DNA from: Deltaproteobacteria bacterium
GTDB lineage: Bacteria; Desulfobacterota; DSM-4660; Desulfatiglandales; HGW-15
Length of the DNA stretch: 64,000 bases
Direction: 5' to 3'
Assembly (NCBI GenBank): GCA_016930835.1
Contig: JAFGGA010000173.1
Coordinates: 6,156-70,155, forward strand
The position numbers were made by a program. Positions 24,001 through 30,000 of this stretch are shown in pieces. Position 1 is the stretch's first letter. Each line of letters opens with the position of its first letter.

Positions 24001-27000
24001 ATATATCGAGTTCCCGGACTTGCTAGCTAAATCCACGTAGGGAAGATCAGGAGATGCGAAATTCGGGATTCGCGAAAGACGCGGGCGGAATCTTTATAGA
24101 TTGGGTTAAGGATCAAAACCCAGGTCAACGGGATAAACCTGAGAGGACAAATGGATCACTATTTCAACCGAATGATAAATACATCCGCCTGCTGCTCAGT
24201 CGAGTAAGGCCCGAAAAGGATGGATTGAGGGAATCCCTCCACTTTAACATAATAAGAGGTTTCAGGATTCAACTCGTTTTGCGTGGCCCAGGCCGTATAT
24301 TCCTTTCCGCCCATTTCCAGTCTTAGACCTTGCATGGGATAGTTCAAAACGGTTTTGGCCGGCAGGCTGCCGGAAGGGCCGACCGCCTGAAAGGCAATAT
24401 CCGCGCCTTCCACACCAAACATCACACCCGGCCAGTTCCCCTGTTTAGGGCGCACCTCGAACCACTGCCCGATCTGTTCGTTGCCGAGGATATCCAAATA
24501 ATATTCAGGAGGGATTGCTTTCGGTTGTTTATGGACCGCCGCCACCAGTTTGGCCCCTAATCCGGCATCGGATAAGGACATGATCCGAGCTCCTTGAATC
24601 GGAAGGCTCAACCGGTCGGAATCGATTGTATCCCCGGCGGTCTGGAGGATCATGATGGGGAAATTCGAACCCCGCTGGGCCTGGACCGTGATGGTCAGGA
24701 GTGATAATCCATAAAGGGTATCCTGGAATAATAATTCCTTATCAGATCCCAATATCCCCAACATAGCAATATTGGAATCCAGGAGGTTCTCTCTTCCCGC
24801 CTGCCATGCCATGGCCTTTAGATCATCCTTCCAGAAATGACCCTGGACATCGATGCCATAAGCCTTCATCTGGATCATCAGCTGTTGAATGGGTTCCGGG
24901 GAGGTTCCAAGGGAAGTGATCCATATGGTTTTCATGAGGTTATCCTCTTTGGTTGCTTTTGACGAGCTATCAACTTAAAGCCCGAAACTCTCATTTATTA
25001 AATACGTTCAGTCTGTCAAGAGGCGCACGGCGCAGGGCAAAGGAAAAACACCCAATATAAAAACGACAAGCTCATGGTGCTATTATGACCTTGGTCTGGC
25101 TGGGGGAAACCTGGGTACCGGCCGGGGCATTGGCATTTATCCCATTATGGCCGCTCATGGATGTCAAATGAACGCACGGCTGTCCCTCAACCTTAACCTT
25201 GGTGCCACCTATCTTAAAGGATGCCGGGCCCATGTTCATGCCTGATGCTACACCTCCGGCGACACCTGCCTCGTCCCCCATGGTTTTGGGGATCTTCGAT
25301 TTCAGGGTAACCACGGGTTTGTTGATAATCATCACCTTCATAGATGTATTCGTGGCCTGATTCAGCATGGCGGTGTTCGGGAAAGGTGTTGGTATGGGGG
25401 GTAAAGGTGGAGCGGGAACAAGGCACACATCGGGCGGCATAGCCATACAATTCCCGCCCTGTGTGGTTGATGCTGGAAACATATATTAACTCCTTTTTAT
25501 CCAAGATGAATTTTTTCGGCCTGAATCTTATAATCCTCTTCCGCTTTCACAAATGCCTTCTTTGATTTGAAATGAAATGTTTTGGCCACCAAAGTTCGTA
25601 CTCTTCCGGCCTTCATTTGACACAGTTCTTCCACTGTCTGATAGATGTTTCCTGCCTTTACGATGACAGAACCTACAATGCTTTCAAGACGGTCAACTTT
25701 ACTCAATAAACACTTTCCGGTGTACTTTGTTTCTTCGATGTGAACCTCCCCGCGCTCGGCATCAATGCCGATTTTCGGGCCCTCCATTTTCATGCCTTGT
25801 TGTTGAAGGGTAAGGTTGGAACGCAGCTTGCCAAGTGCATCCATGATTCCCAAGCAGACACCTCTTGTACCAGTCATGCCGATGGTCCGGCCGTGAAAGA
25901 TGATCTCTTTTCCTGCCGCAAAGGTAATATTGCCCTTACGGGTCACAAACTCAATGTCCCCGGCCTCCATGCTTACTTTACAGCTTCCGTTTTTCTCATC
26001 ATATTGAAAGATCAGCTCATTTTTTGGAGAAACCACCTTTAGACGCTGTTCGCCCTTTGGTCCTTCAACCTCAGCGCGTGCCCCTTTGCTTAGGGCGATC
26101 TGGTTTTCGTTATTGTCTGGCATGTTTTTCCCGGTCAAAACACCAATCACATATAGGTCTTCCGGATCTTCGCCCACGGCCAGCACTGTGTCCCCTTGCT
26201 CTACACGGTTATGGTCCGCAATGGCATTCCGCGCCCATACCGCTCCTTCCAACGGATATCCTCCAAGCAGCAGTCTCATTCGTGATCCTGAGTCCTCAGT
26301 TTCCAGGACCTTTGCAGGCCCAAGATACCTTGTCCGCGGGATCCTTTTAAATTTTTCCGCAAGATTCAACATGATGTCCCTCCGGAGCTATTGTTTTCAG
26401 TGACCTTGGTGGGGTATAAAACCCCACCCTACCATAAATTGATCATTACATAAGTATAAATTCACGTCGTATTGTTGGCCTATAAAGATCATCTTAATTC
26501 CAGTAGTCATACCCCGGTTTATCCGGGGTATCCAGGAACCAGCTTATTATATCAATCCTCCCAAAGCGGATTCTCTTTCTGGATTAGTTTAAGTCTCCAT
26601 TTACGCGGATATTTTTATTCGCTTTCCTCGACCAATTGTATTTACAGGATCTTGATATTGCTCCAAATAAACAAGTTTGATGGCCTCGTAAAAAGTCAAA
26701 AAACATCCATTTTTGTCATTCCAGCCTGCCTGTGCGTGTTCGCACGCAGACAGGTGAAGAGCGGAATCCAGTCTTTTCAAATACCTATACTGGCTCTGGA
26801 CCCCGGCCTTCACCGGGGTGACAACTTTTTCCGAGTATGTCAAGTTTGCCTATATGATATTTTTAATAAGCCCATCCGTCACCTTTTCTTTATGCCCTCA
26901 TACACATTTAACCAGATCGGAAGTGATAGCCACGTAGAGGTTGCCGTTGCGCTTATTGGTTAGAATGTAAACGTTATAATATTTTACCATATTTTCCGGA

Positions 27001-30000
27001 TTGCCCGGACAAGCCGGGTAATGACATTCTAAAATCGGCGACTGAGTTCAACCCTTTAAAACCTTTGGCGGCATCCAATCCTCCGCTTCAGCGCGATCCC
27101 TATCCGTGTATTTGACGAGCCTTTTTTTCGCCCCTTTCCAAATGGTCTTTTGGTCATTGATCCGATGAAGGTTACTTTGTGTTATATCCGCGTATGAAAA
27201 ATCCGCCTGCTCAAGGTTTGCGTGGGAGAACTCTCCATATGGAATCTTCGCGCTCCTGAAACTGGCTTCAATGCATTCCGCTGTTTTGAAAAACGCCCGG
27301 TCGAGTCGTGCGCCGATAAAGTTTGCCCTCTTTAGGCTTGCCCTTTCAAACATCGAGAACCTCAGATCCGCACCTGAAAAATCAGCGCCTTCCAACACGG
27401 CTTCATGAAAATTGACGGCCCTTGCAATGGTGTTTTTGGCCTGTACCCCTGTAAGATTCGCCTTTGTAAAATTGACCTGTGTCAGAATGGCCTGATTCAA
27501 TCTTGACCCCGAGAGGACGGCTTCCGAAAGGTCGCAGTCCGTAAAATTACATTCGGCCAGGTCCATCTTTTCAAGGTTAACCCCTTTAAGACCACAAAGG
27601 ATAAATTGGGTCTTTTCGATTCGGGCCGAGGTCAGATCCACCCCGTCAAGATCCGTCCGGATCAATCTTGTCCCCGTGAGATCAATGCCATCTATCTTGC
27701 ATCCATCCATCTGGCAATAATCCAATAATGCCTGGCCGCAGTTTGATTCCGAAAAGTCGGCGCCGGATGCCAGGACATCCTTCAGGGTTGATCGGGAAAA
27801 ATCTACTCCCTTGAGACATGCCCCGGAGAAATCGGCATCCGTTAGGTCACATTCGGCTAACCGCGCGCCCGTAAGTTGCGCCCCGGAGAAATCGGTTTCA
27901 CTCAGGTCATTTCCGCTTAGATCAATCCCCTCCATCAGACAATTGCTGAAAATGATATTCTTCAATGCCACTTTCCTCAAAGATGCCGCCTTCAGGTTCG
28001 TATTAAAAAATTTCGTTCCCTTGAACTGGCTCTCCGAAAGGTCGGCCCCTTCAAGAATCGAATCATAGAAGGCAGTATCGGTCAGGTCCGTTTTCCTGAA
28101 CAAGGTCTTATTCAACTTGACTCCGCTGAAAACCGCGCCTGATAACCCGCATGATGAAAGATCGGATCCACAAAGATCCGAATTCTCAAAACGGGCGGCA
28201 TTCAGAGCAGCCCCCGTCAAGATCGCCCTATTAAGTATAGACCCCTGGAACAGGGCACCTTCCATCTCAGACCCCTTGCACTGGGCCCCGGTCAATGTGG
28301 ATCCGAGAAATGCTGATCCCTTGAGCCTGGCCATGGTCAGGTCTGCGTCCGTGAGATCCGTATTGTGAAATTCCGCTTCTTTAATGTCAGCCCCCCTAAA
28401 TGACAGGCCCCGCAAGGAAATGCCTGAAAATTTTGTTTTCATGAGATTTGTGGCTATCATCTCTACCTTTGTTAAATCGCAATCAACAAATTTACTACCG
28501 GAAAGATCAGCCAGGCTGAATGAACAATGGGCAAGGTTTGTTCTCAAAAACTCGGTATTAATAAGAAGTGCTTCTGAAAAATTTTTTCCTGAAAGGGCAC
28601 AATCCGTAAATACACAATGGGGAAGATCTTTGGGTAGGTTCTGAACAATGGTCAGATCATTTCCTGAAATCTTGACCTTTATGAACTCTGCTTGTTCAAA
28701 ATCCCCTTTTCCCAGATCACATCCGGCGAATTCAGCGCCGTGTATCTTGGCGGATATAAAACTTGAGGATGTTAGATTCGTGTTTTCAAAGCGAACCAAT
28801 TCGAGTGTGGTCCTGCTCAGATCAACATTGTTCATACTACAGTTCGTAAAGGAGGAATCGCTCAGATCCGCTCCGGGAAAGGCGGCATTGTCGAACACAA
28901 CCCCCTCGAAGGTGGCGGTCCTCGTGATAGCATTGGAGAACACGGCACCCTTCATGCTGCAAATTCCATTTTCAAAATCCGACATGGTGATTCCAAGATC
29001 TTCAAGTCCGATGTTCAGGGAGTCGACGTCGATATTCGCGGGATCCTTTTTGATCATCTCCATTAGTTCTTTTGGTAGTTTTATGTCTTCGGGTTTTTTC
29101 TTAAAAACAAACTCCACCCCTATATGGATGCCCGAGAGATCAGCGCCTGAAAAATCCGCTCCTTCACCATTCACGTTAAATAGTTTTGCGACAGACAGGT
29201 CCGCCTTGGAAAGCACGGCGCCGCTCAGGTCTGAATGATGGATAGCTGCATTCCCAAGCCTTGCCCGAGTAAGGTTTGCCCCTTCGAGGTTTGTGTTAAA
29301 GATAAAGGCCCCTTCCAGATTGAAACCGCTGAAATCAATGCCTTTAAGATCCAGCCCCATCAATCGGGCCCCAGCCAGTGACTCCTTGTCTTCAATCTTT
29401 TTTAAGAGCACTTCGGTAGACATGAAGCCTCTACCAAAGTTCTTAAAATCGGCTATGTTGATGTTGTTCAGGAGGTCTTCCATGTCCATAAAATCAGCCA
29501 TAATTAATGATATTCCTTCTCATCCCAGCTTCGTCATCTTTAAATTGGTGTTTTCCATTTTTGTATGATCGATTATCGCGTCCAAAAACTCCGCACCGTA
29601 CATATTGGATCCGCTCAAATCAGCCCCGGTCAGGTCTGCTTTTTCAAGACTCCCTTCAAACAGGTTCGTAAACAAAAGCCTGGCCTTCCGCATGTCCGCC
29701 TTTCTGAATCGTGTATGCTTCATGTCTGCCCCGCTGAGATTTGAACTTTGTAAACAGGCGCCGGTAAAGTCCGCACCCTGCATTCCGGAAAGGGAAAAGT
29801 CGGTATACTTCAGCACGGCATCATGCCAGATGGATTCAAAACCGTTTGACTCCCTAAACGTACTTTCGGTAAAATCGCATGCCTCCGATGCCCGGAGCCG
29901 GGTCAGATCCGCCTTGTTAAAGTTGGCTTTCACTCCTTTGGCGCCTTCTACCGAGGCGTCCTGCAATTTGGAATCTCTAAAATCAGCCCCATTCAAGATG

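What the first reader, a model, noticed from the sequence alone, without database searches (positions are those of the whole stretch)
26373..27047. MITE-like element with a perfect 8-bp target-site duplication inside a dead GIY-YIG gene, lodged within the T6SS tail-tip module
The 675-bp gap between the pentapeptide gene and the DUF3540-like gene contains a decayed GIY-YIG (UPF0213-like) gene, MVKYYNVYILTNKRNGNLYVAITSDL.... It is split by a 161-bp element (26680-26840) with terminal inverted repeats and flanked by CAAGTTTG on both sides (26672-26679 and 26841-26848). Deleting the element plus one 8-mer restores a continuous ...KYHIGKLVYLEQYQD... frame. That is direct evidence of a transposition event.

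A second, shorter copy (131 bp, perfect 14-bp TIR CTCGTAAAAAGTCG) lies at 60117-60247. No transposase is present in the window, so the autonomous partner and its family are unknown. Additional GTCAT-ACCCCGG/CCGGGGTAT-CCAG and CCCGG/CCGGG-TAATGAC hairpins flank it (26507-26537 and 26996-27025).
Basis: seen in the sequence. Interest (0 to 1): 0.55.

Follow-up and report, generated by a model that had tools for sequence, protein, structure and literature searches.

The report
Hairpin-carrying MITE inside a dead ssnA nuclease gene
A small non-coding transposon, mobilised by an IS1182-like transposase, has landed in an already small selfish nuclease gene cassette (ssnA with its hairpin repeats) that itself sits between two type VI secretion genes. 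This is ordinary mobile-DNA biology, except that the transposon carries the nuclease's own recognition hairpins.

Summary

**The two copies**
- Copy A is 26679-26841 (163 bp), flanked by a 6-bp target-site duplication AAGTTT, not 8 bp.
- Copy B is 60116-60248 (133 bp), flanked by AATATT.

**The family**
- The left-end 18-mer occurs in at least 119 loci from 69 species-level MAGs, mostly Desulfobacterota plus some Nitrospirota.
- Elements have 19-bp terminal inverted repeats (GATGGCCTCGTAAAAAGTC).
- 41 of 88 complete elements have perfect 6-bp duplications of the form A-A-N-N-T-T. A shifted control gave 0.
- A 1901-bp autonomous partner has the same ends and the same duplications. It is present as three identical copies in a Desulfatitalea MAG and encodes a 583-aa IS1182-like DDE transposase. 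None is in the window.

**The dead gene**
- The GIY-YIG gene is an ssnA homologue (Ssn single-strand nuclease family, Chenal et al. 2025).
- It has the family's typical hairpin-gene-hairpin layout.
- The closest relative has only about 45 bp at this site, so the whole cassette of about 640 bp is an insertion.

**The MITE cargo**
- The roughly 133-bp MITE class carries a head-to-head pair of the same Ssn-related hairpins, with compensatory stem changes between genomes.
- I found no paper describing this.

Verdict: a new MITE family of a known kind, of modest interest.

The parts
26679..26841 (+). MITE copy A, 163 bp. The left inverted repeat is GATGGCCTCGTAAAAAGTC (26679-26697). The degenerate right inverted repeat is AACTTTTTCCGAGTATGTC (26823-26841).
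   Evidence: Alignment to copy B. Profile hit at E 3e-19. Ends defined from 88 complete relatives.
26673..26678 (.). Left copy of the 6-bp target-site duplication AAGTTT.
   Evidence: AAGTTT fits the family target A-A-N-N-T-T.
26842..26847 (.). Right copy of the 6-bp target-site duplication AAGTTT.
26715..26771 (+). First SRM-type hairpin inside copy A (GTCATTCC...GGAATCCAG), with its loop expanded.
   Evidence: Hairpin scan. Homologous position in alignment A3.
26725..26754 (.). 30-bp nested palindrome CCTGCCTGTGCGTGTTCGCACGCAGACAGG. This is the only length difference between copy A and copy B.
   Evidence: Relatives sit at the same loop position in L065 and L091.
26796..26823 (-). Second SRM hairpin inside copy A (TGTCACCCCGGTGAAGGCCGGGGTCCAG).
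   Evidence: Matches the published SRM search pattern.
26540..26990 (-). ssnA-type GIY-YIG pseudogene. Lesions are: a TGA stop at 26898-26900; a frameshift near 26853-26862; the MITE; a frameshift near 26604-26614; and a stop at 26552-26554.
   Evidence: Frame analysis. Pfam GIY-YIG E 8e-4. tblastn to annotated GIY-YIG nucleases. BLASTP to the N. gonorrhoeae SsnA homologue, E 6e-25.
26996..27025 (-). SRM-like hairpin 5 bp upstream of the ssnA start, in gene orientation (GTCATTACCCGGCTTGTCCGGGCAATCCGG).
   Evidence: It has the same position and orientation as in the Aeromonas and Shinella loci and as one hairpin of the upstream pair in Azospirillum. It does not match the strict published pattern.
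26505..26535 (+). SRM hairpin just downstream of ssnA, inverted relative to the gene (AGTCATACCCCGGTTTATCCGGGGTATCCAG).
   Evidence: Matches the published SRM pattern. Forms inverted repeat I1 with 26993-27025.
26404..27046 (.). Whole inserted block relative to the closest relative: SRM-ssnA-SRM cassette plus MITE A.
   Evidence: Pairwise alignment of the window to L135. Homology stops at 27047 and resumes at about 26403. L135 has about 45 bp between the pentapeptide stop codon and the DUF3540 start.
60116..60248 (+). MITE copy B, 133 bp. This is the canonical size class. It has two SRM hairpins (60151-60178 on the + strand, 60203-60230 on the - strand).
60110..60115 (.). Left copy of the 6-bp duplication AATATT of copy B. 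The right copy is at 60249-60254.
41701..41770 (.). Free head-to-head SRM dimer without MITE ends, between hcp and tssE. It has the same two stem types as the MITE cargo.
   Evidence: (E 5e-10 to profile positions 24-106).

Best explanation
There are three nested layers of mobile DNA.

**Layer 1: the cassette.** A small hairpin-gene-hairpin cassette entered the short spacer between the pentapeptide-repeat gene and the DUF3540 gene of a T6SS VgrG-tip operon. The cassette is an ssnA-type GIY-YIG single-strand nuclease gene flanked by inverted Ssn-related hairpins (SRMs). The gene has since decayed.

**Layer 2: the MITE.** A 163-bp MITE then cut-and-pasted, or copied, into the ssnA reading frame at the target AAGTTT and duplicated those 6 bp. 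The MITE belongs to a family defined by 19-bp terminal inverted repeats (GATGGCCTCGTAAAAAGTC). An IS1182-like DDE transposase supplied in trans by a roughly 1.9-kb IS with the same ends mobilises the family. That IS is seen in other genomes, not in this window.

**Layer 3: the cargo.** The roughly 133-bp class of this MITE carries a head-to-head pair of the same SRM hairpins between its ends. Each transposition therefore also spreads two Ssn recognition hairpins.

**Shown:** the ends, the duplication length, the target preference, a partner IS with a DDE transposase, the identity of the gene and hairpins, and the insertion relative to a relative.

**Inferred:** that this transposase is the mobilising enzyme, the order of the inactivating events, and any effect on T6SS expression.
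For: **Ends and duplication**
- 41 of 88 complete elements have perfect 6-bp flanking repeats, and 9 more have one mismatch. A shifted control gave 0.
- SRM-bearing elements (18 of 34 perfect) and SRM-free elements (23 of 54 perfect) behave alike.
- Position 1 is always A and position 6 is T in 40 of 41.

**Partner IS**
- Three 100% identical 1901-bp copies occur in one 5.66-Mb Desulfatitalea contig, with the same left end and duplications AAGTTT, AATATT and AAGGTT.
- The 583-aa ORF has DUF772 plus DDE_Tnp_1_6 domains.
- Its best NCBIfam model is IS1182, E 2.7e-50.
- Annotated relatives are IS1182 family transposases.
- A second transposase, 68% identical, sits next to the same end in L106.

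**Insertion into ssnA**
- Removing 163 + 6 bp restores GKLVYLE across the junction.
- The restored protein aligns without a gap to GIY-YIG nucleases and to the Neisseria SsnA homologue (E 6e-25).

**Hairpins**
- The published SRM pattern hits the window 5 times, against 0.24 expected from shuffles.
- The same upstream-direct, downstream-inverted layout is seen in Aeromonas and Shinella. Azospirillum has an inverted hairpin pair on each side of the gene.
- 11 of 28 predicted pairs in 24 MITEs show compensatory changes, all of them in the two hairpins.

**Cassette as an insertion**
- The closest relative has about 45 bp at the site.

**Multi-copy nature**
- A Logan contig of the same locus breaks inside the MITE.
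Against: - No empty-site allele of this exact locus was found. Both metagenome scans returned nothing because the species is absent from that collection.
- The source genome itself was not among the loci returned. Its copy number is therefore unknown, as is whether it holds the partner IS.
- The transposase scores below NCBI's IS1182 cut-off (171.7 against 270 bits), so family placement is approximate.
- The duplication always starts with A and ends with T. A 4-bp duplication with element ends T...A therefore gives the same sequences and cannot be excluded. IS1182-derived MITEs with 4-bp repeats are on record (PMC3852290).
- The upstream hairpin 26996-27025 does not match the strict published SRM pattern.
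- The closest syntenic relative is only 73% identical in the neighbouring protein. 'Insertion' of the cassette could instead be loss in the relative.
Confidence: 0.85

Rival explanations
1. The elements are moved by the GIY-YIG/Ssn nuclease itself, or by another hairpin-recognising single-strand enzyme as in REPIN/RAYT systems. On this view the terminal inverted repeats are incidental.
For: - The cargo is a head-to-head hairpin dimer, like a REPIN.
- Free dimers without MITE ends exist in the window.
- The authors of the Ssn paper themselves note that NTS-ssnA-NTS looks like an IS.
Against: - Size classes with unrelated, hairpin-free interiors (45, 101, 121, 153, 189 bp) have the same ends and the same 6-bp duplications.
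- A fixed-length duplication and inverted terminal repeats are the signature of DDE transposition, not of single-strand peel-and-paste.
- An IS with the same ends encodes a DDE transposase.
Confidence: 0.05
2. The hairpin dimers were not carried in by the MITE. They insert secondarily into MITE centres, so the MITE is a target of the hairpins rather than their vehicle.
For: - A minimal 45-bp element made only of two ends exists (L033).
- Many classes lack hairpins.
- Di Nocera et al. report CGTC hairpin dimers always embedded in a 41-bp palindrome in H. neapolitanus.
- A nested palindrome has entered a hairpin loop in copy A, L065 and L091. Small palindromes therefore do insert into these elements.
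Against: - The hairpin-bearing class keeps one architecture in 23 assemblies: the same linker, the same central TTTCAA..AGTT spacer and a length of about 133 bp. That fits one capture followed by spread.
- 18 of 34 such elements have fresh perfect duplications, so they transpose as units.
Confidence: 0.15
3. The flanking repeat in copy A is chance, and the two GIY-YIG fragments are unrelated remnants rather than one interrupted gene.
For: A 6-bp A/T-rich repeat is short. The pseudogene carries other frameshifts and stops.
Against: - The restored protein is colinear with full-length homologues across the junction, with no gap.
- The duplication fits the family-wide length, position and A-A-N-N-T-T consensus.
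Confidence: 0.02

Closest known systems
MITEs derived from IS1182-family insertion sequences (e.g. the ISMac2-derived MITEs of Methanosarcina acetivorans; Kamoun et al. 2013, PMC3852290)
   Same: - Short (100-170 bp) and non-coding.
- Terminal inverted repeats shared with an IS that encodes an IS1182-type DDE transposase.
- Short fixed flanking duplication.
- Many copies.
   Different: - Different ends (GATGGCCTCGTAAAAAGTC) and different hosts (Desulfobacterota, Nitrospirota).
- 6-bp A-A-N-N-T-T duplication, against the 4 bp or 0 bp listed there.
- The transposase is a distant relative: about 27% identical to annotated IS1182 transposases, and below the NCBIfam cut-off.
- One class carries Ssn hairpins as cargo.
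NTS-ssnA-NTS / SRM-ssnA-SRM loci of the Ssn nuclease family (Chenal et al., Nat Commun 2025, PMC11893778)
   Same: - About 95-aa single-domain GIY-YIG protein, 40% identical to the Neisseria homologue.
- Flanked on both sides by inverted CGTCAT...ATCCAG hairpins.
- The hairpins are also scattered elsewhere in the genome.
   Different: - Here the gene is dead: two stops, two frameshifts and a MITE.
- The host is a Desulfobacterota MAG, a group not discussed in that paper.
- The cassette sits inside a T6SS operon.
- Some hairpins ride inside a DDE-type MITE.
CGTC-tagged REPs (Di Nocera et al. 2013, PMC3733652), including Neisseria dRS3
   Same: - 8-9 bp stem starting AT, 4-5 nt loop, (C/T)GTC head and CCA-like tail.
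- Mostly head-to-head dimers.
- In H. neapolitanus the dimers are embedded in a longer palindrome.
   Different: That paper found no dedicated transposase and no flanking duplications. Here the embedding palindrome is a pair of transposon ends with a duplication and an identifiable partner IS.
REPIN/RAYT systems
   Same: Two inverted hairpins form a small non-autonomous unit, together with a single associated nuclease-type gene flanked by the hairpins.
   Different: - REPINs carry a GTAG tag and have no terminal inverted repeats or duplications.
- REPINs are tied to a Y1 HUH transposase. Here the tag is CGTC-type, the associated gene is GIY-YIG, and the mobile unit has DDE-type ends.
Correia elements of Neisseria
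   Same: A MITE in a genome that also holds dRS3/NTS hairpins. It inserts in and near genes.
   Different: Correia elements have 26-bp ends, a TA duplication and no SRM cargo. The sequences are unrelated.

Membership tests
Bacterial MITE (non-autonomous derivative of a DDE insertion sequence) | Terminal inverted repeats conserved among copies | tested here: met
   19-bp ends were found in 89 complete elements from 119 loci. In alignment A3 the terminal-repeat pairs are almost invariant.
Bacterial MITE (non-autonomous derivative of a DDE insertion sequence) | Flanking target-site duplication of fixed length | tested here: met
   41 of 88 are perfect at 6 bp and 9 have one mismatch. The shifted control gave 0. 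Copy A has AAGTTT and copy B has AATATT.
Bacterial MITE (non-autonomous derivative of a DDE insertion sequence) | Small and without coding capacity | tested here: met
   Elements are 45-353 bp with modes at 101, 121, 133 and 153 bp. ORFs across copy A are only read-through artefacts.
Bacterial MITE (non-autonomous derivative of a DDE insertion sequence) | Autonomous partner with the same ends and the same duplication | tested here: met
   A 1901-bp IS occurs as three identical copies with 6-bp duplications and a 583-aa DDE transposase. It is in another genome. None is in the window.
Bacterial MITE (non-autonomous derivative of a DDE insertion sequence) | Empty site at an orthologous position | tested here: inconclusive
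   Conceptual excision restores a colinear ssnA protein. No empty allele was found, because the species is absent from the metagenome collection.
IS1182 family (for the partner IS) | Transposase with DUF772 N-terminal region and DDE_Tnp_1_6 catalytic domain | tested here: met
   Pfam gives E 2e-10 and 1.2e-16.
IS1182 family (for the partner IS) | Score above NCBIfam NF033551 curated cut-off | tested here: not met
   171.7 bits against a cut-off of 270. It is still the best-scoring family. Annotated tblastn relatives are IS1182 transposases at about 27% identity. It is therefore an IS1182-like distant relative, not a certified member.
Ssn nuclease family (ssnA; cd10448) | Single-domain GIY-YIG protein of about 94 aa, homologous to N. 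meningitidis SsnA at E < 1e-10 | tested here: met
   The reconstructed 95-aa product scores BLASTP E 6e-25 and 40% identity to the 94-aa N. gonorrhoeae homologue that lies among NTS repeats. tblastn gave E 2e-15.
Ssn nuclease family (ssnA; cd10448) | Assignment to CDD cd10448 | not testable with these tools
   CDD is not available here. Pfam GIY-YIG scores only E 8e-4, below the cut-off, on the decayed sequence.
Ssn nuclease family (ssnA; cd10448) | SRM hairpins flanking the gene on both sides | tested here: met
   The downstream hairpin matches the published pattern. The upstream hairpin has the same form and position but fails the strict pattern. The layout is the same as in Aeromonas and Shinella; Azospirillum has a hairpin pair on each side.
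Ssn nuclease family (ssnA; cd10448) | Intact gene with site-specific ssDNA cleavage | tested here: not met
   It is a pseudogene with two stops, two frameshifts and the MITE. Activity cannot be tested here.
Ssn-related motif (SRM) / CGTC-tagged REP | Match to HGTCWYN(0-2)YYVSBRHN(0-5)WNVSBRGN(0-2)RNCYNB, enriched over shuffles | tested here: met
   5 hits in the window against a mean of 0.24 in 100 dinucleotide shuffles. 23 of 46 hits in 790 kb of related loci lie inside MITEs.
REPIN/RAYT | GTAG-tagged hairpins and a Y1 (RAYT) transposase flanked by them | tested here: not met
   The hairpins start (A/T/C)GTCA, which is CGTC-type. The flanked gene is GIY-YIG.
Correia element | 26-bp ends and TA duplication | tested here: not met
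   The ends are 19 bp and unrelated in sequence. The duplication is 6 bp.

The most novel reading that the evidence does not exclude
In Desulfobacterota and Nitrospirota, the recognition hairpins of the Ssn single-strand nuclease spread mainly as cargo of a DDE-transposase MITE. That would answer the question left open for CGTC-type REPs and SRMs: which enzyme multiplies them. The copy that knocked out ssnA would then be one instance of conflict between the nuclease and hairpin-bearing mobile DNA.
Probability: 0.2. Interest if true: 0.6.

Novelty: new member of a known kind. Interest (0 to 1): 0.4.

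Why it matters
As a MITE insertion in a pseudogene the finding is routine. Four things are useful beyond that.

1. It defines a widespread MITE/IS family that I could not find described. Its ends, target (A-A-N-N-T-T) and IS1182-like partner can now be annotated. 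The element breaks assemblies, as seen in a Logan contig.

2. It places an ssnA cassette in a phylum and a context (inside a T6SS tip operon) not covered by the 2025 paper that defined the family. Presence and absence at an orthologous site fits the authors' suggestion that hairpin-ssnA-hairpin is, or was, mobile.

3. Ssn-type hairpin dimers can travel inside a conventional DDE-type MITE. This is one concrete route for the expansion of CGTC REPs, for which no transposase was known.

4. The same intergenic site holds different small selfish genes in relatives. This marks it as an insertion hot spot in T6SS loci.

Tried and rejected
- **Rfam.** The whole window at gathering threshold gave nothing. 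The region at E up to 10 gave only weak chance hits.
- **Viral contigs.** The scan for the end 18-mer found nothing.
- **Word-indexed protein search.** The decayed GIY-YIG protein gave no hits. PDB sequence search gave none.
- **An older copy around the pseudogene.** I considered that the pseudogene sits inside an older copy of the same MITE, because 26474-26492 (GTTGGCCTATAAAGATCAT) and 27040-27052 loosely resemble the ends. The family profile gives no hit there at E up to 10, so I dropped the idea.
- **An 8-bp duplication.** Rejected by copy B and by the family.
- **Promoter and terminator scan of the gap.** Nothing above shuffles.
- **Matching hairpin stems between MITEs and free hairpins per genome.** Too few free hairpins in the sampled loci.
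- **Metagenome scans.** The scan for the empty allele and the scan for a shared flanking sequence both returned nothing.
- **Literature.** Searches for the end sequence and for Ssn plus MITE found no prior description.

Full report
**1. The observation**

The sequence is as described. CAAGTTTG flanks a 161-bp stretch at 26680-26840. A shorter relative lies at 60117-60247 with a perfect 14-bp inverted repeat. Copy A differs from copy B only by a 30-bp longer first hairpin.

The 675-bp gap holds a decayed GIY-YIG reading frame on the minus strand. Removing the element and one repeat restores ...KYHIGKLVYLEQYQD....

The surroundings are a T6SS cluster on the minus strand. In order:
- Hcp, TssE, TssF, TssG, ClpV, VgrG
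- a DUF2169-pentapeptide protein
- a pentapeptide protein
- the gap
- DUF3540
- a PAAR-like protein

**2. True ends and duplication**

The two window copies share sequence from TTGATGG... to ...TGTCAA, so the ends are ambiguous from the window alone.

These come from 69 assemblies. Most are Desulfobacterota (Desulfobacteraceae, Desulfosarcina, Desulfatitalea, Desulfosudis, Smithellaceae, Syntrophales), with several Nitrospirota.

In these loci I found 89 complete elements with ends GATGGCCTCGTAAAAAGTC ... GACTTTTTACGAGnnCATC.
- Of the 88 with enough flank, 41 have a perfect 6-bp direct repeat immediately outside, and 9 have one mismatch.
- The same comparison shifted by 6 bp gave 0.
- The repeat reads A-A-N-N-T-T. 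Position 1 is always A, and position 6 is T in 40 of 41.

Copy A is therefore 26679-26841 with AAGTTT on both sides. Copy B is 60116-60248 with AATATT.

The base before the left repeat happens to equal the element's last base (C). The base after the right repeat happens to equal its first base (G). That coincidence occurs in 20 of 41 and 12 of 41 relatives, which hints at a CAANNTTG target preference. An 8-bp duplication would require both matches in every element.

The repeat always begins with A and ends with T. A 4-bp duplication with ends T...A would therefore give the same sequence. One element (L024, AATATG on both sides) favours 6 bp. One (L089, CTGTTT against ATGTTT) favours 4 bp. I report 6 bp with that caveat.

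**3. The partner**

Three loci from one 5.66-Mb Desulfatitalea contig hold a 1901-bp element with the same left end and a related right end. The three copies are 100% identical. Their duplications are AAGTTT, AATATT and AAGGTT.

It encodes a 583-aa protein.
- Pfam finds DUF772 and DDE_Tnp_1_6 domains.
- The best NCBIfam model is IS1182 (E 2.7e-50). The score of 171.7 bits is below the 270-bit cut-off.
- Annotated tblastn relatives are IS1182 family transposases at about 27% identity. An unannotated Microvirga sequence is 40% identical.

A second transposase, 68% identical, follows the same end in L106. No such gene is in the window.

IS1182 is described as a heterogeneous family in which some members target palindromic sequences (PMC5678879). 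MITEs derived from IS1182 members are on record (PMC3852290).

Size classes with unrelated interiors (45, 101, 121, 153, 189 bp) share the ends and the duplication. The ends, not the interior, therefore define mobility.

**4. The dead gene and its hairpins**

The restored 95-aa protein matches annotated 'GIY-YIG nuclease family protein' genes over its full length (33 plasmid records, best E 4e-20; alignment).

Several of those homologues are bracketed by the same hairpin, GTCATyCC...GGrATCCAG.
- In Aeromonas and two Shinella plasmids, one hairpin lies upstream in gene orientation and one lies downstream inverted.
- Azospirillum has an inverted pair on each side of the gene.
- Neisseria gonorrhoeae has arrays of these hairpins on both sides of the gene.

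A literature search then showed that this association was published in 2025. The gene is ssnA, the founding member of the Ssn family of site-specific single-stranded DNA nucleases. The hairpins are NTS or 'Ssn-related motifs' (SRMs). 71% of ssnA homologues have one nearby and 42% have them on both sides (PMC11893778). The same hairpins were earlier catalogued as CGTC-tagged REPs, including Neisseria dRS3. They occur mostly as head-to-head dimers and have no known transposase (PMC3733652).

Tests made here:
- The restored protein is 40% identical to the 94-aa N. gonorrhoeae homologue, with E 6e-25 and no gaps.
- The paper's degenerate SRM pattern hits the window five times, against 0.24 expected from shuffles. 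The sites are 26505-26535, 26796-26823, 41701-41728, 60151-60178 and 60203-60230.
- The upstream hairpin 26996-27025 has the right form and place but fails the strict pattern.
- The gene carries two stops and two frameshifts besides the MITE. I cannot order these events.

**5. The cassette is itself an insertion**

Homologues of the DUF3540 protein gave syntenic loci.
- In the closest relative (73% identity, L134/L135), the pentapeptide gene's stop codon is about 45 bp from the DUF3540 start.
- Aligned to it, the window's homology ends at 27047 and resumes near 26403. About 640 bp is therefore extra: the SRM-ssnA-SRM cassette plus the MITE.
- Other relatives have 248 bp of non-coding DNA at this site (L132/L133).
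- Still others have a 23S_rRNA_IVP gene flanked by AT-rich direct repeats of about 130 bp (L130/L131).

The site collects small selfish genes. These relatives are not close, so loss in them cannot be excluded.

**6. The MITE carries SRM hairpins**

The commonest class (about 133 bp, copy B) has one architecture across many genomes:
- end
- 17-nt A/T-rich linker
- hairpin
- TTTCAA..AGTT spacer
- inverted hairpin
- end

By a relaxed hairpin test, 34 of 89 complete elements from 23 assemblies carry such hairpins. By the strict published pattern, 19 of 89 do. Half of all strict SRM hits in 790 kb of loci lie inside MITEs, which make up 1.6% of the bases. That sample was selected for MITEs, so the figure is biased.

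In 24 aligned elements, 11 of 28 predicted pairs show compensatory changes. All 11 are in the two hairpins, while the terminal repeats are nearly invariant. Hairpin-bearing elements have fresh duplications as often as the others (18 of 34 against 23 of 54).

The window also has free head-to-head dimers without MITE ends at 41701-41770 and 41870-41994. They have the same two stem types.

The Ssn paper does not mention MITEs or Desulfobacterota. I found no paper containing the end sequence in this context.

**7. Mechanism**

The best-supported reading is three nested layers:
1. An ssnA cassette entered a T6SS operon spacer.
2. A trans-mobilised IS1182-like MITE entered ssnA at AAGTTT.
3. A hairpin dimer rides as cargo in that MITE.

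Two rivals are weaker. Hairpin-directed mobilisation by Ssn or a RAYT-like enzyme is contradicted by the hairpin-free classes that have identical ends and duplications. Secondary insertion of hairpins into MITEs remains possible as the origin of the class, but the present copies transpose as units.

No promoter or terminator signal above chance lies in the gap. Any effect on T6SS expression is untested.

**8. Verdict**

- The gene-hairpin association is already known.
- The MITE family and its hairpin cargo appear undescribed, but they are a new member of a known kind.
- Interest is moderate to low.

Noticed in passing
window 26725-26754; L065 about 6677; L091 about 5258; L072 about 947; L085 about 3868: A 30-bp palindrome (CCTGCCTGTGCGTGTTCGCACGCAGACAGG) sits in the loop of the first hairpin of copy A. 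A 23-bp relative sits at the same loop position in MITEs of two other contigs, and free relatives occur elsewhere. It looks like a tiny palindrome that inserts into hairpin loops. Unexplained.
   Followed up: partly
window 41701-41770 and 41870-41994 (between hcp and tssE); weaker 60281-60377: Head-to-head pairs of Ssn-type hairpins without MITE ends. These are free SRM / CGTC-REP dimers in T6SS intergenic spacers and next to MITE copy B.
   Followed up: partly
L130 4023-5000, L131 4109-5000, L132 1935-2288 and 4753-5000: At the same pentapeptide|DUF3540 site, relatives carry either a 23S_rRNA_IVP (four-helix-bundle) gene flanked by AT-rich direct repeats of about 130 bp, or 248 bp of non-coding DNA. 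One relative also has a DUF559 endonuclease-like gene between the two pentapeptide genes. The VgrG-tip operon seems to be a hot spot for small selfish genes.
   Followed up: partly
L033 3140-3184: A minimal 45-bp member of the MITE family. It consists of two 19-bp ends separated by 7 nt, with a perfect AAAGAT duplication.
   Followed up: no
L077 3503-3635 and 3642-3774: Two 133-bp hairpin-bearing MITEs lie in tandem 6 bp apart, in the same genome that holds the three identical IS copies.
   Followed up: no
L121 (Azospirillum lipoferum 4B plasmid AZO_p3, 255206-256090): An intact ssnA homologue sits between sufB and sufC, with an inverted hairpin pair on each side. This is another case of the cassette lodged inside a conserved operon.
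   Followed up: partly
window 27047-27062: The pentapeptide protein ends ...PPKVLKG*, whereas the closest relative reads ...PPRSLEGGREG*. Homology stops right after the window's TGA. The cassette insertion seems to have replaced the last few codons.
   Followed up: partly
window 26408-26428: A perfect 8-bp G+C-rich hairpin (GGTGGGGT-ATAAA-ACCCCACC) lies at the DUF3540-proximal edge of the inserted block. It has no T-run and is not an SRM.
   Followed up: no
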